Shown piece by piece: positions 6,198 through 64,000 of a stretch of DNA of 64,000 nt. The stretch spans positions 25,808-89,807 of the forward strand of contig CAVTHK010000008.1 of the NCBI GenBank assembly GCA_963734495.1. Direction: 5' to 3'. Numbering within the stretch: the first letter of the stretch is position 1; each line of letters starts with the position of its first letter. The notes beneath the pieces are model-generated. The model was not told the DNA's origin, searched no databases, and worked only from the letters and a program-made list of their open reading frames with translations. Origin of the DNA: an uncultured Spirochaetota bacterium. GTDB taxonomy: Bacteria > Spirochaetota > Spirochaetia > SZUA-6 > CAVTHK01. A program made the translations under genes and the position numbers.

Positions 6198-6677
6198 ATG
6201 GCCGACATCAACCGTGTCATCATCGTCGGGCGGCTGACGAGGGACGCCGAGCTCAAGTACACTTCGGGGGGCTCCCCCGTGGCGAAGTTCGGCCTCGCGG
6301 TGAATCGCCGGCGCAAGGTCGGCGACCAGTGGGAAGAGGAAGCCAACTTCTTCGACGTCGTCGTCTGGGGGCGGACCGCAGAGGCGCTCAACCAGTACCT
6401 CGTCAAAGGCAAGCAGATCGGGGTCGAAGGCGAGCTCCGCCAGGATCGCTGGGAGCAGGACGGCCAGAAGCGCAGCCGAGTCGAGATCGTCGCCAGCAAC
6501 ATCATGCTCCTCGGCGGCAGGGGCGGCGAGGGCGGGCCTGGTCCGTCGAGCCCCGGCGGGCCCGGAGGCCAGGGAGGCCAGGGAGGCCCGGCGGGACCCG
6601 CCCGCGGCGGCGGAGCGGCCGGCGGTCCTGCGGGCCACGAGGGCCAGGACGATTTCGAGGACGATATCCCATTCTGA
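6198..6677 (+). CDS. ssb: Single-stranded DNA-binding protein
   Basis: INRVIIVGRLTRDAEL OB fold; C-terminal DDIPF. Confidence 0.97.
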   Translation: MADINRVIIVGRLTRDAELKYTSGGSPVAKFGLAVNRRRKVGDQWEEEANFFDVVVWGRTAEALNQYLVKGKQIGVEGELRQDRWEQDGQKRSRVEIVASNIMLLGGRGGEGGPGPSSPGGPGGQGGQGGPAGPARGGGAAGGPAGHEGQDDFEDDIPF

Positions 6678-52456: not shown

Positions 52457-53344
52457 GGCGGAGGCAGCGTACAACCATGGTGCTTAAGGCCATCGAGGAA
52501 AGCCAGCTCAAGCGGAAGTTCCTCAATTACATCCCGAAACTGCCGAGTGACCTGATCAAGATCGCGGCCCTGCTGGCATTCTCCTTTCCGTTCTACTGGA
52601 TGCTGATCACGGCTTTCAAGACCTATATCGAATCGATCGCCACGCCGCCGACGCTCTGGCCCACGGACTTCACGTTTGAGAGCTTCAAGACGATCAGCCA
52701 ACTGGGCGTCGGTCTGTGGCGCTACGCGTTGAACTCCGTCATCATCACGGCATCGGTCGTCGTGATCCAGATCATCGTCATGGTCCCTGCGGCCTACGCA
52801 TTCGCCAAGCGCAGGTTCCCGCTCATGGGTCCTCTCTTCGGCGTCGTGCTTGTCGCGTTCATGATCCCCGAGCAGATCACCTACATCTCGAGTATTCCTC
52901 TTGATGTCGAAGCTCAAGGTGATCAACACCCTCTGGCCGCAGATCATTCCCTTTGGCGCCAACGCGTTCGGCATCTTCATGCTCCGCCAGGGCTTCAAGC
53001 AGGTCCCCGACGAGATCGTGGAGTCCGCCAAGCTGGACAGCGCCACCGAGCTGCAGGTCATGACCCGGATCATGCTCCCGATGAGCAAATCGTACATGAT
53101 CACGATCGCCATGTTCTCGTTCATCGCCCACTGGAACTCCTATTTCTGGCCACTGGTCATGACGATGAACGACTCGGTGCGCCCGCTGACCATGGCGATC
53201 GAAAGGCTCAGGGACGCGGAGCAGGGAGTACTCTGGAACCATGTCATGGCGTCCAACACGATCCTCGTGGCCCCGGTCATCGTGATCTTCCTGTTTGCCA
53301 GCCAGAAGATCATAGCGGCTTTCGCGTACAAAGGCGTGAAGTAG
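52453..53344 (+). CDS. ABC permease, UgpE-like, frameshift near 52890
   Basis: FPFYWML...PPTLWP; after shift AFGIFMLRQGF..VP.EIVESAKLD; HWNSYFWPL. Confidence 0.87.
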
Positions 53345-53935
53345 GCAGCGGCATTCGAGCGCCTGGGCAGTGACCCCGCTGTAACGCGGCCGAGCAGACT
53401 CGCGGCAGTGCCGCGGGTCGAGTTCCGCCGATGGTCAGGCGGAGGCCGGCAGGAGTCGAGCCGGGCGTCGCCCCAGCAAGCCGCCCCCACCGACTGTTCC
53501 GACCACGAGGGCCTGAGACGCGGCGAATAACGAAAACGGCTCCTCCTCTCCCCGTATTGTCTCGGTTCCTGAGACAACGTCCGTGGAAGGCTTCGAACGC
53601 TGCGCGGGCGCCCGGCTTTCGGCCGTGGCGAAGCCTGGCGGGACGTCAAAGCCTGGTCACTCGCGCTACCGCTGCGTCCGATACGGCACGCCTTCCGTCC
53701 GTCAGCGAACCATTCCTCGTGTGGATCGTTTCGGAGGCCTGCATCCAGCCTGTGGCGGAACGGCTTCAGCAGGGCCGGTAGCACCAGAAACGGCCGCGCT
53801 TCTTGAGGTAGGACGGCTGCCTCATGCCAGCCGCTCCAGGACCGCTTTGATCCACGGGGTCCAATCCTTGGTCCGGGAGGCGAGTCGCACGAAATGCCGA
53901 AAAGAGGCAAACTCGGGAAGAACGGCAGTTGCCGA

Positions 53936-53978
53936 TGGGCAGCGCGGGATTCGAACCCACGGCCTTTGGCTCCGGAGG
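53936..53978 (-). repeat. tRNA-Arg(CCG) 3'-half fragment, att-like copy 1
   Basis: Reverse complement C-CTCCGGA-GCCAA-AGGCC-GTGGG-TTCGAAT-CCCGC-GCTGCCC-A; no D-arm or 5' acceptor strand upstream. Confidence 0.92.
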
Positions 53979-53996
53979 CCGTTGGCCCCTCAAGTA

Positions 53997-54290
53997 TCAA
54001 CTCGCCCTAACGAGAGGCTCGGGAAGATGCTTGACGCGAGATCGGGCTCTGTAGACATCCACAGCTTGCTGAGCGTTCAGCCAGAACTCTGGCGACGTGT
54101 TCAAGGCGCGCCCGATCCTGATCGCCATCTCCGCACTGATCGACGTCCGGTTGTTGACGATGCGGTTCACCACCTTGACATCACAGCCGAGGTGGTCGGC
54201 GAGTTGCTTCTGCGTAAGGTTGAGCGGCTTGAGGAATTCCTCCGAGAGGATTTCGCCCGGACTGGTCGGTTCTCGCTCGATCGCAAACAT
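53997..54290 (-). CDS. higA: HigA-family antitoxin (XRE HTH)
   Basis: PTSPGEILSEEFLKPLNLTQ..LA...ISAEMAIRI..ALNTSPEFWLNAQ. Confidence 0.93.
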   Translation of the reverse strand: MFAIEREPTSPGEILSEEFLKPLNLTQKQLADHLGCDVKVVNRIVNNRTSISAEMAIRIGRALNTSPEFWLNAQQAVDVYRARSRVKHLPEPLVRAS

Positions 54291-54306
54291 GTACACCTCC
54301 GTGAGG

Positions 54307-54597
54307 CTAGTGGTAGTCGATGATGGCGACTTCCGTGGGTCCAGCATCGAGCCAACGGAAGACGATCCGCCAACGTTCGTTGACTCTGACACTATGGTAT
54401 CCAGTTCGGGTTCCCCGCAGTACTTCGAGGCGGTTTCCAGGAGGGGACCGGAGATCATCCAAACGTGCTGCGTAGTGGATCATGTCCAGCTTGCGCTTGG
54501 CCACCTTCGCCACGCCCTGCCATCTGACGCGCCGCCCGACCTTGCCTGTAACGAAGAAGCTCTCCGTGTCCGCGTCTGAGAAGCTTTGAATGGCCAC
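54307..54597 (-). CDS. higB: HigB (RelE/ParE superfamily) toxin
   Basis: IQSFSD..TE; ARLDDLRSPPGNRLE.L.G.R.GYHSVRVNERWRIVFRW; IIDYH. Confidence 0.93.
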   Translation of the reverse strand: MAIQSFSDADTESFFVTGKVGRRVRWQGVAKVAKRKLDMIHYAARLDDLRSPPGNRLEVLRGTRTGYHSVRVNERWRIVFRWLDAGPTEVAIIDYH

Positions 54598-54607
54598 TTC
54601 GGAGCCA

Positions 54608-54637
54608 AATATACCTCACAGAGGTATACCCGGTCAA
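54608..54637 (-). promoter_or_regulatory. higBA promoter with palindromic operator
   Basis: TTGACC-N18-TATATT on - strand overlapping the perfect inverted repeat TATACCTC-aca-GAGGTATA (54610-54628). Confidence 0.75.
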
Positions 54638-54687
54638 GGGAAGAAAGCGCACCTCTTGGCATGAAACAGGGAGGAACGCGGCCGATT

Positions 54688-54730
54688 TGGGCAGCGCGGG
54701 ATTCGAACCCACGGCCTTTGGCTCCGGAGG
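54688..54730 (-). repeat. tRNA-Arg(CCG) 3'-half fragment, att-like copy 2
   Basis: Identical 43-mer TGGGCAGCGCGGGATTCGAACCCACGGCCTTTGGCTCCGGAGG. Confidence 0.92.
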
Positions 54731-54784
54731 GCTCATGTGTTGGGGCGCAGAGCTTCGGCTCACGGGGGCCAGAGGTCCGGCGCC

Positions 54785-55072
54785 CTATTTCCGCGTGACG
54801 AGCTCGATCGCCTTCCGAATCTTGTCCTCGTCCACAAGTCGATCCGTGCTGTACCTGTACAGAACGCTGGAGATCAGCGTCTGGTAGGACAGACCTTCCG
54901 ACGCTGCCTTTCGCTTGATCACCTCCAGCACGGTCTCGTTGAGCCTCAGGCTGACTGTTCTGGACTTGGTCGCCTTTGACAGGATCCTCTTGCGCTCATC
55001 ATCTGAGACCGGCACATACCGATCAATGGATTCCTCTATCTGGCTCTCATATCGATCGAGGTTCTTTGCCAC
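54785..55072 (-). CDS. CopG/RHH-type antitoxin (partner of BrnT-like toxin)
   Basis: KSRTVSLRL...IKRKAASEGLSYQTLISSVLYRY; overlaps the toxin 3' end; start GTG 55072 or ATG 55087. Confidence 0.82.
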   Translation of the reverse strand: MAKNLDRYESQIEESIDRYVPVSDDERKRILSKATKSRTVSLRLNETVLEVIKRKAASEGLSYQTLISSVLYRYSTDRLVDEDKIRKAIELVTRK

Positions 55073-55334
55073 CCTTCGTGCCTCCATATCGCTTGTGCAG
55101 CTTTCGGCTCGGATAGGCGGTCTTCAGAGCAATGTTTCCGTCGGCGTCCTCGACGAACGGAACACAGTAGGTGTAGCCACGCAGGGACACCACAAAGACC
55201 TTCTGGTTCTCTCGAGCCGGATTCTTCAGAATCGCCAGGACTTCTCGCTTCATGATGAGCTCCGCGACTTCCTCGAACGAAACGCCTCGGGTCTGAACCA
55301 GCCTGCAATCCTTGGCATCGTCCCAGACGATCAT
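55047..55334 (-). CDS. BrnT-like type II toxin
   Basis: WDDAK...RGVSFEEV...ILKNP.RENQKVFVV...Y.VPFVED...LKTAYPSRK; TTGACA promoter at 55368-55363. Confidence 0.82.
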   Translation of the reverse strand: MIVWDDAKDCRLVQTRGVSFEEVAELIMKREVLAILKNPARENQKVFVVSLRGYTYCVPFVEDADGNIALKTAYPSRKLHKRYGGTKGGKEPRSI

Positions 55335-55388
55335 GATTCAATGTGCTGTTTTGTATAGACTTTGTCAAACTCGCGGCGGCGGGGGATT

Positions 55389-55431
55389 TGGGCAGCGCGG
55401 GATTCGAACCCACGGCCTTTGGCTCCGGAGG
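55389..55431 (-). repeat. tRNA-Arg(CCG) 3'-half fragment, att-like copy 3
   Basis: Identical 43-mer. Confidence 0.92.
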
Positions 55432-55564
55432 GCGCGGGGGCGGCTCCAGGCGGCCTGCAGCTTGCGTGGCGGGCCGCCGGAACATAGGATGATGCGGGAT
55501 TGGCAGCAGGCTGGTGAAGCCGGCCATTACTGTGATGTTAACACCTAAATGATAGTGGTGCAAG

Positions 55565-55759
55565 ATGCTCGCTGACAACGTGAAGCGCTACCGGACCAAG
55601 AAGGGGCTGTCCCAGGATCAGCTGGCGCGGAAGGCCGGCGTCACCTACAGCACGCTGACCAAGCTCGAGTCCGGCGTGAACCAGAACCCCAAGGTGAAGA
55701 CGCTCCAGCAGATCGCCGCGGCCCTCGACGTCACGCTCAACGACCTGATGAAGGAATAG
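55565..55759 (+). CDS. XRE-family HTH regulator
   Basis: NVKRYR.KKGLSQDQLARKAGVTYSTL.KLESG...NP...TLQQIAAALDV. Confidence 0.92.
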   Translation: MLADNVKRYRTKKGLSQDQLARKAGVTYSTLTKLESGVNQNPKVKTLQQIAAALDVTLNDLMKE

Positions 55760-55798
55760 TTGGGTCGCTTCGCATCGCAGGAAACTACGGAGGTAGAA

Positions 55799-56485
55799 AT
55801 GCCGCAATACGACGCCGTAGAGAAGGACGCCTACTACAGCGCCTTTGCGCCAGCTCGCAGTCGGAAGCCGCAGCCTCCGCTACAAGAGGCTCTGCGTATC
55901 GCACTGGACACAAGGCAATTCGAGATCAGCCTATACTGGACACGATCTGCCTACTTCTGGGCTTTCGTCTCGGTGGGTCTCGCTGGCTTTTTTGCTCTTG
56001 AAAGTGAAACCAGCAATCCCGCGCCGGCCTGGATGCCGGCCGTAATCGCCCTGCTTCTGTTGGTGTTTTCCGCCGCTTGGTACGTGGTGGCTCGGGCCAG
56101 CAAGTTCTGGCAAGAGAACTGGGAGCTTCACGTTGACTACTTGGCGGACAAGGTTGGAGGACCACTCTTCCAGACGGTGGCAAATCCAGCGAACCGGTCA
56201 TGGTGGAAGCCGCTCGATGGACTGGCCGTATCAGTCTCACGTGTGAACATGATCCTTTCCTTGGCGGTGACCATCGTCTCCGACGGCTTACTGTGGTATG
56301 CAACGAACCAGTGGCTGAAACCCACCTCACCCCGCGACGCAGTCAGCGTCGCCGTCGGTGCGCTCGCTTTGCTCATTGGAGTGTTGGCCCTTTTTGTGCA
56401 CGGGGCCCGTTCACACATCGACCTCGCAAAGGACTTGAGAAAGGGGAAAGCCGCTCGGACGGATTTCGTTCGACGTCGATTATAG
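55799..56485 (+). CDS. 4-TM membrane protein with ALDTRxFEIxLYWxRxxYFW motif
   Basis: GGAGG RBS; ALDTRQFEISLYWTRSAYFW, SKFWQENWE.H, SVSRVN motifs around TM pairs. Confidence 0.75.
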   Translation: MPQYDAVEKDAYYSAFAPARSRKPQPPLQEALRIALDTRQFEISLYWTRSAYFWAFVSVGLAGFFALESETSNPAPAWMPAVIALLLLVFSAAWYVVARASKFWQENWELHVDYLADKVGGPLFQTVANPANRSWWKPLDGLAVSVSRVNMILSLAVTIVSDGLLWYATNQWLKPTSPRDAVSVAVGALALLIGVLALFVHGARSHIDLAKDLRKGKAARTDFVRRRL

Positions 56486-56617
56486 CGACCCGCCAGCGGG
56501 CGCGCCGCCGGCGGGCTGCTTCGCGCGTGCCGCACTCCCCCAACGGTACTTCGGGAACGGCCGTGCCAGTAGGGGGAATGCGGGACGGCAGGGGCCGGAG
56601 GGGGCCGGGGGGGGGCC

Positions 56618-57412
56618 GTGAATTGCGTACGGAGCCTGATCGCTTTTGTTGCAGTCAGCTACGCCGTAATGGCCGCCTTCACGGGATGCGCGACCGTTGA
56701 GGAGATAGGCTCGTCGGTGGGCAAGAGGACAGAAGCGTTCCTGGACGGGCTCAAGGCCGCGACGAAGGACAGCAGCGAGTCCCGACAGGGTTCCGACCAG
56801 GGCAGCCACCGCGATGACTGGGAAGCGCCCGAGCTCGATCTCGGCAAGGAGGCTGAGTATCTTTCCGACACCGAGCGGCGAATCGTGCTCGAATTGAACA
56901 AGGTACGCAGCGATCCGAAGCGCTATGCGGAACTCTACATCAAACCACGACTCGGCAACTTTGTCGGAAAGGACTATTCGGAGCCGGGCAACGTCACCAT
57001 CCGTACAAACGAAGGACGCGCCGCAGTCGAGGAGTGCATCCGTAGCTTGCAGTCGTTCGGTCCACGACAGGCGTTGCGTCCGACAAAGGCGCTTTCAGCT
57101 GCCGCGCGGGATCATGTACGCGACACCGGACCGAAGGGGGCGGTCGGTCATGCTGGAAGCGACCGAAGCTCTCCGGCGGTGCGCGTGCGGCGATACGACG
57201 CTTCGCTCCAGTACATCGGAGAGAACATCGATTACGGAGCCGCGGACGCGCGCGACATTGTGCTAGCGCTGCTGATAGACGACGGAGTCCCCAGCCGAGG
57301 CCATCGAATGAACATCATGAACGCCGACTACGACTTGGTCGGCGTCTCAGTCGGACCGCACAAGACCTACCGCCAGATGTGCGTTCTGGACTTCTCCAGC
57401 ACCCAGAAGTAG
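56618..57412 (+). CDS. CAP (SCP) domain lipoprotein
   Basis: FTGC lipobox-like; ELNKVRSDP; AARDH; GH.G; GENI.YG; DDGVPSRGHRMNIMN. Confidence 0.88.
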   Translation: MNCVRSLIAFVAVSYAVMAAFTGCATVEEIGSSVGKRTEAFLDGLKAATKDSSESRQGSDQGSHRDDWEAPELDLGKEAEYLSDTERRIVLELNKVRSDPKRYAELYIKPRLGNFVGKDYSEPGNVTIRTNEGRAAVEECIRSLQSFGPRQALRPTKALSAAARDHVRDTGPKGAVGHAGSDRSSPAVRVRRYDASLQYIGENIDYGAADARDIVLALLIDDGVPSRGHRMNIMNADYDLVGVSVGPHKTYRQMCVLDFSSTQK

Positions 57413-58745: not shown

Positions 58746-61700
58746 CTATCTTCCATACAGGCGGCGCAAAAGGAAGAGCGGATCGACACCCTGCCCGAAG
58801 CGCGACAACGCAAGATGCAGATGGTACCCGCTGCTTGCCCCCGTATTGCCCACCCAACCTATCCACTGCCCAGAGAACACCGACTGATTAGCCCGCACGA
58901 GAGGTGCGCGAAGCAGATGGCAGCAGTACGACTGTACTCCGTTGGCGTGGTCTATTCGCACGAAATAGCCCGCCCGCGCGTTGAATCCAGTTTCCGCCAC
59001 TGTTCCGCCCCAAAGAGAGTTCACGCGAGTTCCTCCTCTGGCAGCCATGTCCACCCCCTGATGGAATGGCTCGTAACCCGACCAATGTACTCCGCGCCTC
59101 TGGGCCCGTACTGATCCGTGTACCTGATGAATCTGCGCTGATCAATCGGCCGCGATGCGGGGTCCATATCATCGAATTGGTCAGCGCCACGCTCGAAGCT
59201 GTCGCGATATGCCAGTCCCAACCCTGGATCACCCCGGCCGAGGTTCGACACTCCCCAAATGAGACTCCTCGCCTCGCATGTCGCGCCGAGGTGCTCGGAG
59301 AACAGTCCGGCCATTCCGCCACCCAACGCGGCTCCGATCCCCACCGCACCGAAGAACCCGCCCGTGCTCCAGTCATCGTACGGCGTGGTGGCGAGGTAGT
59401 TCGCGCCTCCTCCGAACGCACCGACGGTCGCCCCATATGCGATATCACCTCCCAGCCCTCCGATAGTATCAGCCATCCCGAGCCCGCCAGCCCCGAGTGC
59501 GCCGCCGAACGCTCCCACCACTGCGCTGGCCCCGAACGACGACCAGCTCCACGTGTCCTGCCAGCCGACAGCGATAGCGACGCCTTGATAGGCCGCATTC
59601 GTCGCCGCTCCTATGACGGCCCCCAGCAGCATCGCGAGAAGGAACGAATCACCTTCCGGATCGACGTAGATGATCGGGTTGTTCCCGCAATACGTGTATC
59701 TGTTCAGCCCATCCAGCGCGCTGTCGGCCTCGATGAACCTCCCCAGCTCCCGCATCGTAGTACCGCGCCCCGTAGTAGTAGAGCGCCGTCGTGCCGTCCG
59801 CCTCCTGCCCCGTGTAGCGGTAAGCCGTATAGTCGCCCCCCGTCCCGTATGCCTCCGTCCCGTACGGCTCATAGCCGATCGTCTGCACCACCACTCCACT
59901 AGAGTCCGTCAGGCTCGTCGCGCTCCCCAGGTGGTCCTTGTGGATGAACAGAAGCCCGCTCACCGTGCTCCGCTGCGCCACCACCTGCCCGTTGGCGCTG
60001 TAGTACTTCGTCGCCTCGCTCACCGCCCCCTCGACCCGCACCTCCTGGTAGCCGGCAAACCAGTACAGCGTCACGGTAGTGCCGACCGCCTTCCACAGCC
60101 GCTGCCCGAGTCGTCGTAGGCGAAGCTCGTCGTCGTCCCTTCCTTCGTGACGCTCGCCACCCTGTTCTCGGAGTCGTAGGCGATGACGCGGCCTTTCCCT
60201 GAGCTCATGTTCCCGTTGGCGTTGTACTGGTAGCTGTTCGCCCCGTCGTCACTCACCGCGTCGGGCCTCACCCCTCCCGCCTCGGGGTAGCTGTAGGCCC
60301 ACCCGTCCTTCTCCGTGAGATTGTTGTATGCATCGTAGGCGTAGCTCTTGCTCCCGTAGACGCCGCTCGCGCCCGCGAGCCGGTACAGCCCGTCGTAGGT
60401 GTAGTTCTCGGAATGCTCGGGCGCCAGCAGGTCATCCCTGGCAAGGATTTGCCCACCTCGTTGTACTCGTAGTGAAGGTCCACCACCCCCGCTGTTCGAT
60501 GTCCGTAAGCCGTCCGCTCAGCGGGTCGTAGGCGAACCCGGTCGTCTTGCCGTTGCCGAAGCCGAGCTGCGTCACCTTGCAGTTTGCGTCGTCGTCGACA
60601 TTGGCGACGTAGCTGGAGGCGCCGCCCGCGGTCTCCAGGTTGCCGCCGCCGTTGTAGCTGTACTCGACCACCTCGCCGTCGGGGTAGGTCTCGGTCGATA
60701 GCCTCCCCATCGAGTCGTAGCTCATCGACACCGACTTGGAGCCGAAGCCGCTGATCGATCGGGTGGTCCCGGTGACCCGATCGCGCTCGTCGTAGCTGTA
60801 GGTGTCGGCCCCCAAAGGATGCGACACGACCCAGGGATGGCCCGTGAGCGTGTAGGTGTAGGAGGTGACGACGATGTCGTCGTGCTTCTTCACCGTCGGC
60901 CTGTTCAGCTCGTCGTACTGGAAGCGCAGCACCTGGTCCATCGCGTCCCGCTGGTAGGTCAGGTTCCCGTTCTCGTCGTACCCGTAGGCCCAGTCCCCCA
61001 TGTCCGGGTCGGTGTAGGCAGTCTTCCTCCCGAGCATGTCAACGGTAACCGTGATAGCGTTCTCGGTCGGAGTCTCCCGCGGATCGTTCTGCCACGATGG
61101 TGCCGTCCCGACCCTTCTGTTTTCGCACACGGCGGTACCAGGAGCCCTTGCTGGAAGGGAACGAGCTCTTCATGTCGGCGTAGGTGTAGCCCGTGTAGTC
61201 CAAGTTGCTGTAGGCGTAGGAGTAGCTGTGGTTGCGTCTACCTCAGTCGCCGTCACGTGCCCTTCGGCGTCGACAGACGCCTGGTAGTCCTTCGTGTAGA
61301 TCTTGTAGGTGTTGGTTCCGTCTGCACGGGCCTCAAAGCGGTAAGGGCTGCCGATCTCATCGAGGTAGGTCGTCAAGAACGACCTGTTCGGGGAGTTGCG
61401 TTCGCCCGACGCGTTGAAGTCGATGCCGCTCGAAACGTACGGAAGCGATGTCTTGAAGAGGCGCCCTGTCGCGTCGTAGTAGTAGTCCACCGCGGAGTAC
61501 TGCCCCGTGGTCTCGAGCTCGGTCTTTGATCTGGACCTTCCTTCCGAGCCCGTCGAGATAGGTTCGGGCAAACAAATAGTCAGTCTCCGCATTTCTTGCC
61601 TCGATATCGACATAGACGGGGGAGGCGGGCAGCGCCGCCGAGTCGGAATAGCTTTGACGTTTCGTCGGACTCGTGTTGCTGTCGCCATAGTCCCAGGTCC

Positions 61701-64000
61701 TCGCGAGCCGCCCGAAGACATCGTACCGCAGGTAGCGAGATATCTGCCGCTCGTTCTTCACCTCCTCCAGTTGCATTAGGCCGTTGGGGATGTTGACGAC
61801 CTGAAGTCCGAGCGCGTTGGTCGTCGTCGTAACCAGCGTGTCGTAGTCTGAGTCGTACTCGAGCGTGGACGCGACGTTCCCCCTGCCGTCTTTGGTCTTC
61901 CAGAGGTTGCCGTGTGGGTAATAGGCGAATTGCTGCGAAGTGTCGTCAGCTCCGTTCTCGTATTCGATCCGCGCGACCAGTCCTTTCGTGCCGGGGTTAC
62001 CCGCGGTTGCGACCGCATCCCCGAAGTCGTTGTCCGAGTCGCCGGCATAGTAGAAGAACCGTTTCTCTGACGCGACGGCAAAGGACCCAGCGAGGCCGTA
62101 CGCCGACACGGTCTGCTTGGTTGGCAGGAAGAGCCATCTGGACGTGTCGATCGCGTACTCGGTCACTGCCTCCGTCTTGTCCTCAAGAATATCGTTCCCA
62201 TCCGTGTCGACTTCGCCGTAGTCGATCAGAGAAGCGAGGTTGCCGTACGTATCGGGCGGCGCATACTCGACGCGGCGACTCACCCTGGGCGCCGTCTCCC
62301 TGTCTATAGGGTCGATTCCGTCGTACGCGTGACCATACCGATTCGTGTGATATCGGTGCCTGACTCGCGGATAGGCTGGGTCATCTACTCTCGTCGCGTA
62401 CTCGTACTCTATACGGCTGTAGAGCATGCCGTCGGACCCATAAACCTCCTCAGCCTCCACCACCCTGGCCAAGTATCGCGCCTCCGCGGGATCGCTGCTC
62501 TGGGTGTAAAAGCTCCTGACCTCTTCACCGTCCGGAAGCGTCTTTTCGATCCACGCGAAGCAGAGATCGGCCCGGTCCGCCGGAAGCTCGCTCCGGAACC
62601 TGCCGTCGTGATAGGAGTAGTTTGTGGTCCCGACCGTTCCCATCCCATCATCCGTCGCAACTCTCGTCACCAGAAGCCGGGGACACGCGTTGGCGATGAT
62701 GGGGTAGAGGGAACCGGAAGGATCAATCGCGCCCGGCACCTGTGGAGCGGGGGCGACCTCTATCGTCGTGGACCCACCGGACCCAAGTAGAATCGATCCA
62801 AGCCGCGACCTGAAAGATTCGGAAGGAAAAGCCCTGACTTGAATACCTGCGTTTGCGCCTATGAAGTCCGCGACAATGTCGCATGAACCATCGCCGTCCA
62901 CGTCCGCGGGGACCAGTACCAGTAGCTGCCATAGCTGCTCGTCGCCATGGTTTGTTGTGCTTGCGCTTGGAGGGTCCCATCGCCTTGCGACAGAAAAGCC
63001 CTGAGGTAGATGCCGGCGTTGGCACCTATGTAGTACGCGAGCATGTCCGTGCGACCGTCGCCGTTGACGTCAGCAGGGACCATGTGCCAGTAGTCGCCAA
63101 TGTAGCCCGTTGTTGCCGCGACTTGCAGGCCCGTGGGTTCGAACTCCCCGTTTCCGCGCGACAGAAACGCACTCAGTGCAATCCCTTGCCCGCCCATCGG
63201 CCAGTTCCCGCCAATAGAGTACGCAAGCATGTCCGTACGCCCGTCGCCGTTCAAGTCCGCTGGGACCATGCACCACTGGTTGTCATACATGCTCGTCGCC
63301 ATGGTTTGCTGTGCCTGAGCTTGGAACGTCCCGTCCCCTTGCGACAGAAAAGCCCTGAGGTAGATGCCGGCGTTTGCACCTATGAAATATGCCAGCATGT
63401 CAGTGCGACCGTCGCCGTTGACGTCAGCAGGGACCATGTACCAGTAGCTGCCATAGCTGCTCGTCGCCATGGTTTGCTGTGTCTGCGCTTGGAACGTCCC
63501 GTCCCCTTGCGACAGAAAAGCCCTAGAGGTAGATGCCGGCGTTTGCGCCTGTTAAATATGCCAGCATGTCAGTGCGACCGTCGCCGTTGACGTCAGCAGG
63601 GACCATGTACCAGTAGCTGCCATAGCTGCTCGTCGCCATGGTTTGCTGTGTCTGCGCTTGGAACGTCCCGTCCCCTTGCGACAGAAAAGCCCTGAGGTAG
63701 ATGCCGGCGTTTGCACCTATGAAATATGCCAGCATGTCGGTGCGACCGTCGCCGTTGACGTCAGCAGGGACCATGTACCAGTAGTCGCCGTAGCTGCTCG
63801 TCGCCATGGTTTGCTGTGTCTGCGCTTGGAACGTCCCGTCCCCTTGCGACAGAAAAGCCCTGAGGTAGATGCCGGCGTTTGCACCTATGAAATATGCAAG
63901 CATATCGGTGCGACCGTCGCCGTTGACGTCAGCAGGGATCATGTACCAGTAATCGCCGTAGCTGCCCGGCGCCAGAACCTGCTGTTGCCTCGCCGCAAAA
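58746..64000 (-). pseudogene. RHS/YD-repeat polymorphic toxin with FG-GAP repeats, TcdB-like middle region and C-terminal M23 peptidase; multiple frameshifts; 5' end outside window
   Basis: ADVNGDGRTD repeats; YD repeats (YDENGNL, YDELNR, YDSMGRL); DHLGS; YRYTGQE.D; YYYGARYYD; LNRYTYCGNNPIIYVDPEG; tip HQGVD...GNTGASSGYHLH. Confidence 0.88.
62850..63965 (-). repeat. Tandem 168-bp (56-aa) FG-GAP/VCBS-type repeat array, about 7 units
   Basis: GCGACCGTCGCCGTTGACGTCAGCAGGGA recurs at 63051, 63405, 63574, 63742, 63910; a divergent longer unit near 63236 and a degenerate terminal unit near 62890. Confidence 0.92.

What the first reader, a model, noticed from the sequence alone, without database searches (positions are those of the whole stretch)
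53936..55431. Array of integrase-less toxin-antitoxin mini-cassettes, each bracketed by identical tRNA-Arg(CCG) half-gene repeats
Seen: three perfect 43-bp direct repeats (53936, 54688, 55389; periods 752 and 701 bp). Each parses exactly as tRNA position 31, the 7-nt anticodon loop CTCCGGA, the rest of the 3' half and discriminator A. Between copies 1 and 2 lies only promoter+higB+higA; between copies 2 and 3 only promoter+BrnT-like toxin+CopG-like antitoxin. Both operons are co-oriented with the tRNA fragments. Established: tyrosine integrases often cross over in the anticodon loop and leave such a 3' fragment at the island end. Inference: these are ~0.7-kb non-autonomous units, far smaller than normal tRNA islands, stacked like integron cassettes or pdif modules but using a tRNA att site and an integrase in trans. 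Perfect repeat identity suggests recent activity or selection. This is the best candidate for an undescribed system here.
Basis: partly seen in the sequence, partly recalled or inferred. Interest (0 to 1): 0.9.

Follow-up and report, generated by a model that had tools for sequence, protein, structure and literature searches.

The report
Toxin-antitoxin mini-modules between tRNA-Arg half-gene scars
Two tiny toxin-antitoxin gene pairs sit between three identical leftover halves of an arginine tRNA gene, most likely the last survivors of mobile islands that inserted one after another and then decayed, although they could still be small shuffleable modules.

Summary
Three exact 43-bp copies of the tRNA-Arg(CCG) 3' half (window 53936, 54688, 55389; minus strand) bracket only HigB/HigA and a BrnT-like/CopG-BrnA-like pair.

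The window ends at the contig end. The intact tRNA and a twice-frameshifted tyrosine integrase lie on another contig (C7), oriented so that a join is possible. The array also continues: 111 nt beyond copy 1 lie the first 52 nt of a second integrase of the same family.

A relative from another family of the same order (G067) has a third such unit, antitoxin plus ParE between two fragments 682 bp apart. None of the 6 assembled intervals at this site in 4 genomes holds an intact integrase. Broken integrases and TA pairs recur there.

Best reading (0.55): this is a tandem accretion array at a tRNA att site whose units decayed to integrase-less, att-flanked remnants (CIME-like), with the addiction modules surviving.

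Rival (0.3): these are natural minimal modules moved in trans. The tight borders, lack of arm or integrase debris and perfect repeats favour it.

No circles, empty sites or cognate intact integrase could be shown. It is a new variant of a known kind. The scan's earlier notes, unchecked here, report similar integrase-less tRNA cassettes on other DNA.

The parts
53774..53825 (-). Stub of a tyrosine integrase gene (first 52 nt, ATG at 53825). It starts 111 nt downstream of copy 1 in tRNA orientation and marks a fourth, decayed, integrase-bearing element.
   Evidence: blastn gives 47/52 identical (90%) to the first 52 nt of the C7 integrase, which starts 115 nt after the intact tRNA. tblastx aligns the 17 N-terminal residues.
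53936..53978 (-). Copy 1 of the tRNA-Arg(CCG) 3' half (att scar). Identity to the intact tRNA runs 2 bases further, to 53980.
53997..54290 (-). HigA antitoxin (97 aa).
   Evidence: PF01381, 45 bits. TIGR02607, 99.2 bits (cut-off 47.7).
54307..54597 (-). HigB toxin (96 aa, GTG start).
   Evidence: PF05015, 64.2 bits (cut-off 27).
54608..54637 (-). Sigma-70-like promoter of higBA (TTGACC, 18 nt, TATATT), overlapping an inverted repeat.
   Evidence: 2 promoter-like sites found against 0.4 expected; sequence.
54688..54730 (-). Copy 2 of the tRNA-Arg(CCG) 3' half.
54785..55087 (-). CopG/BrnA-like antitoxin (100 aa).
   Evidence: PF12441, 33.3 bits (cut-off 28); PF14384, 26.0 bits (cut-off 26.1). 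NF047399, weak.
55047..55334 (-). BrnT-like toxin (95 aa), overlapping the antitoxin gene.
   Evidence: PF04365, 26.4 bits, below the cut-off of 34.5; homologues of 46-55% identity in 25 other genomes of the order.
55389..55431 (-). Copy 3 of the tRNA-Arg(CCG) 3' half.
55432..57412 (+). End of the next, larger element: a conserved att junction, then XRE (55565-55759), 8xMP membrane protein (55760-56485) and CAP-domain protein (56618-57412).
   Evidence: HTH_3 64 bits, 8xMP 106 bits, CAP 37 bits. The same junction followed by an XRE gene occurs in metagenome contig L085, in G059 and, with a truncated XRE, in G067.

Best explanation
This is the distal part of a tandem array of integrative elements that inserted one after another into the anticodon loop of tRNA-Arg(CCG). 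Each insertion by a tyrosine integrase supplies a new 3' half to the tRNA and pushes the previous 3' half outward, so every element is followed by a 43-bp half-gene scar (established mechanism; inferred here). The elements then decayed. Integrase and cargo were lost, but the toxin-antitoxin operons stayed, because cells that delete an addiction module are killed or arrested (inferred). What remains are two att-flanked, integrase-less units of 0.7 kb, CIME-like in the terms of the S. thermophilus literature, plus a 52-nt integrase stub. In this assembly they have no working cognate integrase. They could move only if a related integrase were supplied in trans, or by RecA recombination between the 43-bp repeats.
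For: (1) The repeats equal the tRNA 3' half from the anticodon loop onward.
(2) The intact tRNA on C7 is followed 115 nt later by a tyrosine integrase (PF00589, 84 bits).
(3) The tRNA's 3' half differs by one T-stem base from the three scars. The scars match the same-genus G001 tRNA exactly. This is expected if the C7 element arrived last and donated its own 3' half.
(4) Decay is shown directly at this site. The C7 integrase lies in three frames. A 52-nt integrase stub follows copy 1. Only integrase N-terminal halves remain in G055 and G059. In G067 the conserved arm is kept but the integrase is gone, with BrnT/BrnA (96 and 66 bits) surviving next to it.
(5) None of the 6 assembled tRNA-to-fragment or fragment-to-fragment intervals (G000 x2, G064 x2, G067, G055) holds an intact integrase. 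For the two G064 intervals only the three largest ORFs were sent to Pfam. Three of the 6 hold only a TA pair, and a fourth has a UPF0175 antitoxin (81.8 bits) near its att end.
(6) In G000 two other tRNA-bounded segments, Thr(CGT) of 7.6 kb and Asn(GTT) of 3.8 kb, also lack any PF00589 hit.
(7) The cassettes are accessory and of lower GC.
Against: All three TA-only units are tightly bounded. Only 16-90 nt lie between the scars and the coding sequence on either side, and much of that is promoter. No trace of the conserved integrase-side arm, of integrase or of the far-side arm was found. By contrast, the clearly deleted elements at the same site keep such debris. Random deletions ending a few bases after a complete scar three times over would be surprising. 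An integrase-made aberrant excision in the anticodon loop would not leave a complete 3' half. The three scars are 43/43 identical, whereas the two G067 scars differ at 2 positions; this suggests recency, conversion or selection. Linkage of the array to the tRNA on C7 is not shown, because both contigs end. The G001 arrangement next to the ABC operon is different.
Confidence: 0.55

Rival explanations
1. The TA pairs are natural minimal modules that never carried an integrase. A circle of one TA operon plus one 43-bp site is inserted and excised by a tRNA-Arg(CCG)-specific integrase supplied in trans by a co-resident or visiting island. The array is therefore shuffled like dif modules or integron cassettes.
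For: Both sides of all 3 units have tight borders, and no arm or integrase debris was found. The architecture recurs in a different family of the order with a different TA family (ParE, 70.5 bits). A short far-side junction is conserved: 7 nt are shared by the G067 unit and the neighbouring element, and a 6-nt junction is shared by the HigBA unit and the G055 island. All 3 units are co-oriented with the tRNA, as are the TA pairs beside the att site in G067 and G055. The repeats are perfect. Two other integrase-less units with about 130 bp of homologous arm occur in G064. TA pairs are typical cargo of small recombinase-site-flanked modules (dif modules, PMC13141974, passages).
Against: No intact cognate integrase was found in G000, which is 83% complete, nor at this tRNA in the other arrays examined. 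The integrase N-terminus resembles an arm-binding type (my recall, not tested), yet the units hold no repeated arm-like motifs. The 11 closest BrnT-like loci in the order (46-55% identity) have no tRNA or fragment within 1.5 kb. No joints were seen in the one run available. No fragment-type junction was found in 185,579 species' genomes, and only 3 in metagenome contigs, none with a TA-only unit.
Confidence: 0.3
2. The units spread or persist by host homologous recombination between the 43-bp repeats (Campbell-type looping out and in, unequal crossing-over, gene conversion) without any site-specific recombinase. This would also keep the repeats identical.
For: There are three perfect 43-bp direct repeats and no working cognate integrase.
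Against: It does not explain how a unit first came to lie between two tRNA halves. 43 bp is a poor RecA substrate (general knowledge, not tested). In G067 the repeats have diverged.
Confidence: 0.07
3. Assembly artefact: the repeats or their order come from mis-joining at a repeated 43-mer.
For: The genome is a draft of 18 contigs. Contigs break near this locus, and several genes nearby look frameshifted.
Against: Each interval is unique sequence with intact overlapping operons. 43 bp is shorter than reads or the usual k-mers (general knowledge). The same architecture occurs in G067. A 216-bp contig of an independent run covers part of higBA with 4 differences.
Confidence: 0.03

Closest known systems
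CIMEs (cis-mobilizable elements) and tandem accretion of ICE/IME-type islands (ICESt1/ICESt3 of Streptococcus thermophilus; defined in PMC5704250, passages read)
   Same: The units are flanked by attL- and attR-type sites, have lost or lack integration and transfer genes, and lie in tandem with related elements at one target gene. Decay followed by accretion is the proposed route.
   Different: Here the units are only 0.7 kb and hold nothing but a TA operon. The site is the anticodon-loop-to-3'-end half of a tRNA. No conjugation genes or parent element are known, and cis or trans mobilisation is untested.
tRNA-gene genomic islands in tandem arrays, including tycheposon-built islands of Prochlorococcus (bioRxiv 10.1101/2020.12.28.424599, passages read)
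   Same: Successive integrations at one tRNA are separated only by partial tRNA copies. Fragmented integrases and extra partial tRNAs mark older events.
   Different: The tycheposon hallmark genes were not looked for and none was seen. The host is a high-GC uncultured bacterium. TA-only units are not mentioned in the passages I read.
dif modules of Acinetobacter Rep_3 plasmids (PMC13141974, passages read)
   Same: Both are small modules bounded by recombinase sites, carried without their own recombinase. TA pairs, higBA above all, are the commonest cargo.
   Different: dif modules are bounded by 28-bp XerC/XerD sites in alternating inverted orientation on plasmids. Here the sites are direct repeats of a tRNA half on a chromosome, and the likely enzyme is a phage-type integrase.
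Integron gene cassettes, including TA cassettes of chromosomal integrons (recalled; no paper read)
   Same: Both are arrays of small co-oriented units, each with one recombination site, and TA units could stabilise the array.
   Different: There is no attC fold, no IntI with attI and Pc, and at least the higBA unit has its own promoter.

Membership tests
tRNA-integrated island array made by a tyrosine integrase | The direct repeat equals the 3' part of a tRNA gene, starting in or at the anticodon loop. | tested here: met
   tRNA positions 32-74 (copies 2 and 3) and 30-74 (copy 1).
tRNA-integrated island array made by a tyrosine integrase | An intact copy of that tRNA lies next to an integrase gene in the same genome. 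| tested here: met
   the tRNA is at C7:459266-459339, and PF00589 (84 bits) begins 115 nt downstream. The gene is in three reading frames.
tRNA-integrated island array made by a tyrosine integrase | The array is physically contiguous with the tRNA gene. | not testable with these tools
   The window end is the C8 contig end. The C7 and C8 ends share no sequence. Their orientation is compatible with a join.
tRNA-integrated island array made by a tyrosine integrase | The content is accessory and foreign. | tested here: met
   There is no DNA match to the cassettes in same-genus G001. GC is 0.583 and 0.562 against 0.654.
CIME (cis-mobilizable element) | Flanked by att sites while lacking integrase and transfer genes. 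| tested here: met
   the only genes are the TA pairs; no PF00589 hit on contig C8.
CIME (cis-mobilizable element) | Derived from a larger ICE or IME by deletion. | tested here: inconclusive
   Decay is evident around the units, but the units themselves hold no debris and no parent element was found.
CIME (cis-mobilizable element) | Excised or mobilised by a related element's integrase. | not testable with these tools
   Only one run holds a small share of the stretch, and it shows no joints.
Integron cassette array | attC sites, IntI with attI and Pc, and promoterless cassettes. | tested here: not met
   The repeat is a tRNA half. No tyrosine recombinase lies on the contig. higBA has its own promoter-like site.
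dif modules | 28-bp XerC/XerD sites in alternating orientation. | tested here: not met
   The repeats are direct copies of a 43-bp tRNA half. The definition is from PMC13141974.
Type II TA, HigB/HigA | A HigB-like RelE-fold toxin followed by a HigA HTH antitoxin. | tested here: met
   PF05015, 64.2 bits; TIGR02607, 99.2 bits. Activity was not tested.
Type II TA, BrnT/BrnA | A BrnT toxin followed by a BrnA/CopG-type antitoxin. | tested here: inconclusive
   The toxin scores 26.4 bits, below the cut-off of 34.5. The antitoxin scores 33.3 bits on PF12441 (above 28) and 26.0 bits on PF14384 against a cut-off of 26.1.
Tycheposons | The hallmark deep-branching tyrosine recombinase and replication genes. 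| not tested
   No comparison with tycheposon proteins was made.

The most novel reading that the evidence does not exclude
tRNA half-genes serve as the recombination sites of a cassette system. TA operons, and perhaps other one- or two-gene units such as the 1.0-kb unit in G064, are free-standing modules of about 0.7-1 kb. Each carries a single tRNA-Arg(CCG) half-site and no arm sites, and is inserted, excised and reshuffled in chromosomal arrays by an island integrase acting in trans. This would be a chromosomal counterpart of Acinetobacter dif modules. The TA cargo would stabilise the whole array at the tRNA hotspot.
Probability: 0.25. Interest if true: 0.75.

Novelty: new variant of a known kind. 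Interest (0 to 1): 0.45.

Why it matters
If the units are fossils, they give a clear picture of how addiction modules outlive the mobile elements that brought them. That would explain part of the chromosomal TA load near tRNA hotspots. If they still move, they would show that a phage-type integrase can handle arm-less, sub-kilobase modules. That would extend the cassette principle of integrons and dif modules to tRNA att sites, and would bear on how small adaptive or defence genes accumulate at tRNA genes. The same scan has noted integrase-less cassettes at other tRNAs in other phyla (AI notes, unchecked), so the phenomenon may be broader than the literature I could search suggests.

Tried and rejected
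1. Reads. The only run offered (X1, share 0.06) gave 15 laid contigs, mostly other organisms' tRNAs. One 216-bp contig lay on 54189-54404 and there were no joints. This says nothing about circles or empty sites.

2. Genome contigs. A fragment-specific pattern gave 0 hits. The plain 32-mer gave 53 loci, each with a single match. Because the fragment-specific scan found none, their junctions read as in the intact gene; I did not run ARAGORN on them.

3. Metagenome contigs. There were 3 hits. L085 shares the junction and XRE of the element right of copy 3. L084 and L086 belong to another tRNA-Arg. None shows a TA-only unit. An ORF in L085 that looked VapC-like by eye had no Pfam match, so I dropped it.

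4. Viral contigs. The 32-mer gave 0 hits.

5. Class-level sample. In 401 genomes, 113 had a match, and only G000 showed several matches close together on one contig. G109, G121, G253 and G337 have matches on separate contigs that I did not open. G032's three matches are intact tRNA genes.

6. Closest integrase relatives. G021 (56% identity) sits at tRNA-Val. G067:C162 (59%) has no tRNA beside it. G019's integrase at tRNA-Arg is only 35% identical and heads an island of more than 15 kb. None gave a parent element with a TA pair.

7. Rfam. No match at E <= 1 in 53300-55900, so the fragments are not hidden RNA genes of a known family.

8. None is shared between the ends of a unit or between units.

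9. Synteny with G001. It ends at window ~53341 and continues there with a region that lies on C5 in G000. This gives no empty-site allele.

10. Literature. Searches turned up no description of TA-only units between tRNA half-gene repeats. This covers the held library only, and supplements were not seen.
Full report
**Observation**

The window carries three exact 43-bp direct repeats at 53936-53978, 54688-54730 and 55389-55431, spaced 752 and 701 bp. Their reverse complement is the 3' part of tRNA-Arg(CCG). It runs from the last base of the 5' anticodon-stem strand through the loop CTCCGGA, the variable loop, the T arm and the acceptor strand to the discriminator.

ARAGORN finds no tRNA in the window, and Rfam finds nothing in 53300-55900. 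A genome-wide search finds only these three copies plus the intact gene.

Between copies 1 and 2 lie HigB (PF05015, 64 bits) and HigA (TIGR02607, 99 bits), with a sigma-70-like promoter. Between copies 2 and 3 lie a BrnT-like protein (26.4 bits, below Pfam's cut-off) and a CopG/BrnA-like antitoxin. All are on the minus strand, co-oriented with the fragments.

**Where the tRNA and integrase are**

The window is G000:C8:25808-89807, so base 64000 is the contig end.

The intact tRNA-Arg(CCG) is on C7 (459266-459339, plus strand), 4.6 kb from that contig's end. A tyrosine integrase starts 115 nt downstream. Its catalytic domain scores 84 bits on PF00589, but the gene is spread over three reading frames, so it looks inactive unless these are assembly errors.

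C7 read forward followed by C8 read backward would place the three fragments downstream of the tRNA in the right orientation. The contig ends share no sequence, however, and C8 ends in tandem FG-GAP-type repeats.

The resident tRNA differs from the three fragments at one T-stem base. The fragments are identical to the tRNA of the same-genus genome G001. That fits an anticodon-loop crossover in which the last-arrived element donated its own 3' half. The same variant base occurs in one fragment of G064.

**The array goes on**

In tRNA orientation, 111 nt after copy 1, lie 52 nt that are 90% identical to the first 52 nt of the C7 integrase gene. Homology then stops (window 53774-53825). Copy 1 is therefore the left end of a fourth element whose integrase and far end have been deleted. 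Synteny with G001 resumes at about 53341, at the end of an ABC-transporter operon.

To the right of copy 3 lies the end of a larger element: a conserved junction, then XRE, 8xMP and CAP genes, followed by RHS and FG-GAP fragments. The same junction followed by an XRE gene occurs in a metagenome contig (L085), in G059 and, with a truncated XRE, in G067.

**Relatives**

In the 92 genomes of the order, 46 match the 32-mer core with up to 3 mismatches. True fragments were verified in 5 genomes: G000, G055, G059, G064 and G067. G032's three matches are complete tRNA genes.

- **G067.** Two fragments lie 682 bp apart and enclose only a 79-aa antitoxin candidate and a ParE toxin (70.5 bits), co-oriented with the fragments. 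This is a third TA-only unit, in another family of the order and with another toxin family. On another G067 contig the intact tRNA is followed by the conserved arm with its palindrome. No integrase follows; instead there is a terminator-like hairpin and then BrnT/BrnA (96 and 66 bits).
- **G055.** The order is tRNA, arm, an integrase N-terminal half only, a sulfatase, a UPF0175 antitoxin with a small partner, and then a fragment.
- **G059.** The order is XRE, fragment, arm, an integrase N-terminal half, and host genes.
- **G064.** The order is tRNA, 3.9 kb with no integrase among the ORFs tested, fragment, 1.0 kb with a lipoprotein-like ORF, and fragment. About 130 bp of homologous arm follow both fragments.

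In all, 6 assembled intervals were examined. None has an intact integrase, with the caveat that in G064 only the three largest ORFs were tested. Three are TA-only.

In a class-wide sample of 401 genomes, only G000 showed several matches close together on one contig. Four genomes with matches on separate contigs were not opened.

**Other searches**

Public genome contigs gave no fragment-type junction. Viral contigs gave none of the 32-mer. Within G000, tRNA-Thr(CGT) and tRNA-Asn(GTT) also have 3'-half fragments 7.6 and 3.8 kb away, with no PF00589 hit between. tRNA-Leu(CAG) has a 14.7-kb island with an intact integrase.

**Weighing the readings**

Several results argue for a graveyard of accreted elements in which TA operons, being addictive, are what survives:
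- broken integrases are found throughout this site;
- integrase-less intervals are the norm;
- no cognate intact integrase is seen in G000, where the next best is 26-30% identical and sits at tRNA-Leu;
- the closest BrnT-like homologues elsewhere in the order are not associated with tRNA fragments (0 of 11 loci).

This is what the literature calls decay to a CIME followed by accretion (PMC5704250, passages). It also resembles the partial tRNAs and degenerated elements of tycheposon islands (passages).

Against simple random deletion, the three TA-only units are cleanly cut on both sides:
- only 16-90 nt lie between scar and coding sequence;
- much of that is promoter;
- no remnant of arm or integrase is detectable.

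The demonstrably deleted neighbours, in contrast, keep such remnants. The G000 scars are also perfectly identical, whereas those of G067 have diverged.

A minimal-module reading therefore stays open. In it, units are moved in trans or by recombination between the repeats. Its nearest functional parallel is the dif modules of Acinetobacter plasmids, in which higBA is the usual cargo (PMC13141974, passages). I put decay-derived, currently immobile CIME-like remnants at 0.55 and natural trans-mobilised modules at 0.3.

**Novelty**

The general kind is known: tRNA att scars, tandem accretion and integrase-less att-flanked remnants. The sub-kilobase, TA-only form, recurring in two families of one order, is a variant that I did not find described in three library searches. 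Those cover the held library only, and supplements were not seen.

Earlier notes of this scan report integrase-less cassettes at other tRNAs on other DNA. I used them as leads only. The arm-repeat lead was tested here and not met.

Reads that could settle mobility were not available.

Noticed in passing
L005:7455-8575 (G000:C7:459454-460574): The tyrosine integrase next to the intact tRNA-Arg(CCG) is spread over three reading frames, with shifts near L005 7551-7569 and 7872. It is either a pseudogene or an assembly error. A conserved palindrome lies about 20 nt before its start codon and recurs in G055 and G067.
   Followed up: partly
L116:4695-5285 and L139:779-1375: In G055 and G059, which belong to different families, the same integrase family is cut to an N-terminal half of about 190 aa at a similar point. 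In each case it sits right after a tRNA-Arg(CCG) 3' end. This is either recurrent truncation or a retained N-terminal fragment.
   Followed up: no
window 55565-57412: An XRE regulator, an 8xMP octameric membrane protein (106 bits) and a CAP-domain protein form the att-proximal end of the next element. The XRE and its junction are conserved in L085, G059 and, truncated, in G067.
   Followed up: partly
window 59649-64000: RHS/YD-repeat fragments lie in several frames (59649-61130). FG-GAP/dockerin-like tandem repeats of about 168 bp (62826-64000) run into the contig end and probably caused the assembly break.
   Followed up: partly
L134 (G000:C12:30500-35200) and L135 (G000:C7:387300-395400): Two further tRNA-bounded segments in the same genome, tRNA-Asn(GTT) of 3.8 kb and tRNA-Thr(CGT) of 7.6 kb, end in exact 43- and 42-nt 3'-half fragments and have no PF00589 hit. 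The Thr segment carries a STAND-type NTPase/kinase and a LuxR-TPR regulator.
   Followed up: partly
G000:C1:35794-38155 and G000:C9:166820-169181: There are two copies of three tandem tyrosine recombinase genes with identical scores, which look like recombinase-in-trio elements.
   Followed up: no
window ~53341 / L026:1667-1724: Synteny with same-genus G001 breaks at the end of the ABC permease gene. In G001 the next DNA matches G000:C5:135298 downward (a 6-phosphogluconate-dehydrogenase-like gene end, named from reading the sequence by eye, no family search), so the island array sits at a rearrangement breakpoint.
   Followed up: partly
L114:5442-5618 and 6464-6641: In G064 two integrase-less units (1.0 and 3.9 kb) share about 130 bp of homologous arm next to their tRNA fragments, unlike the TA units, which have none.
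   Followed up: partly
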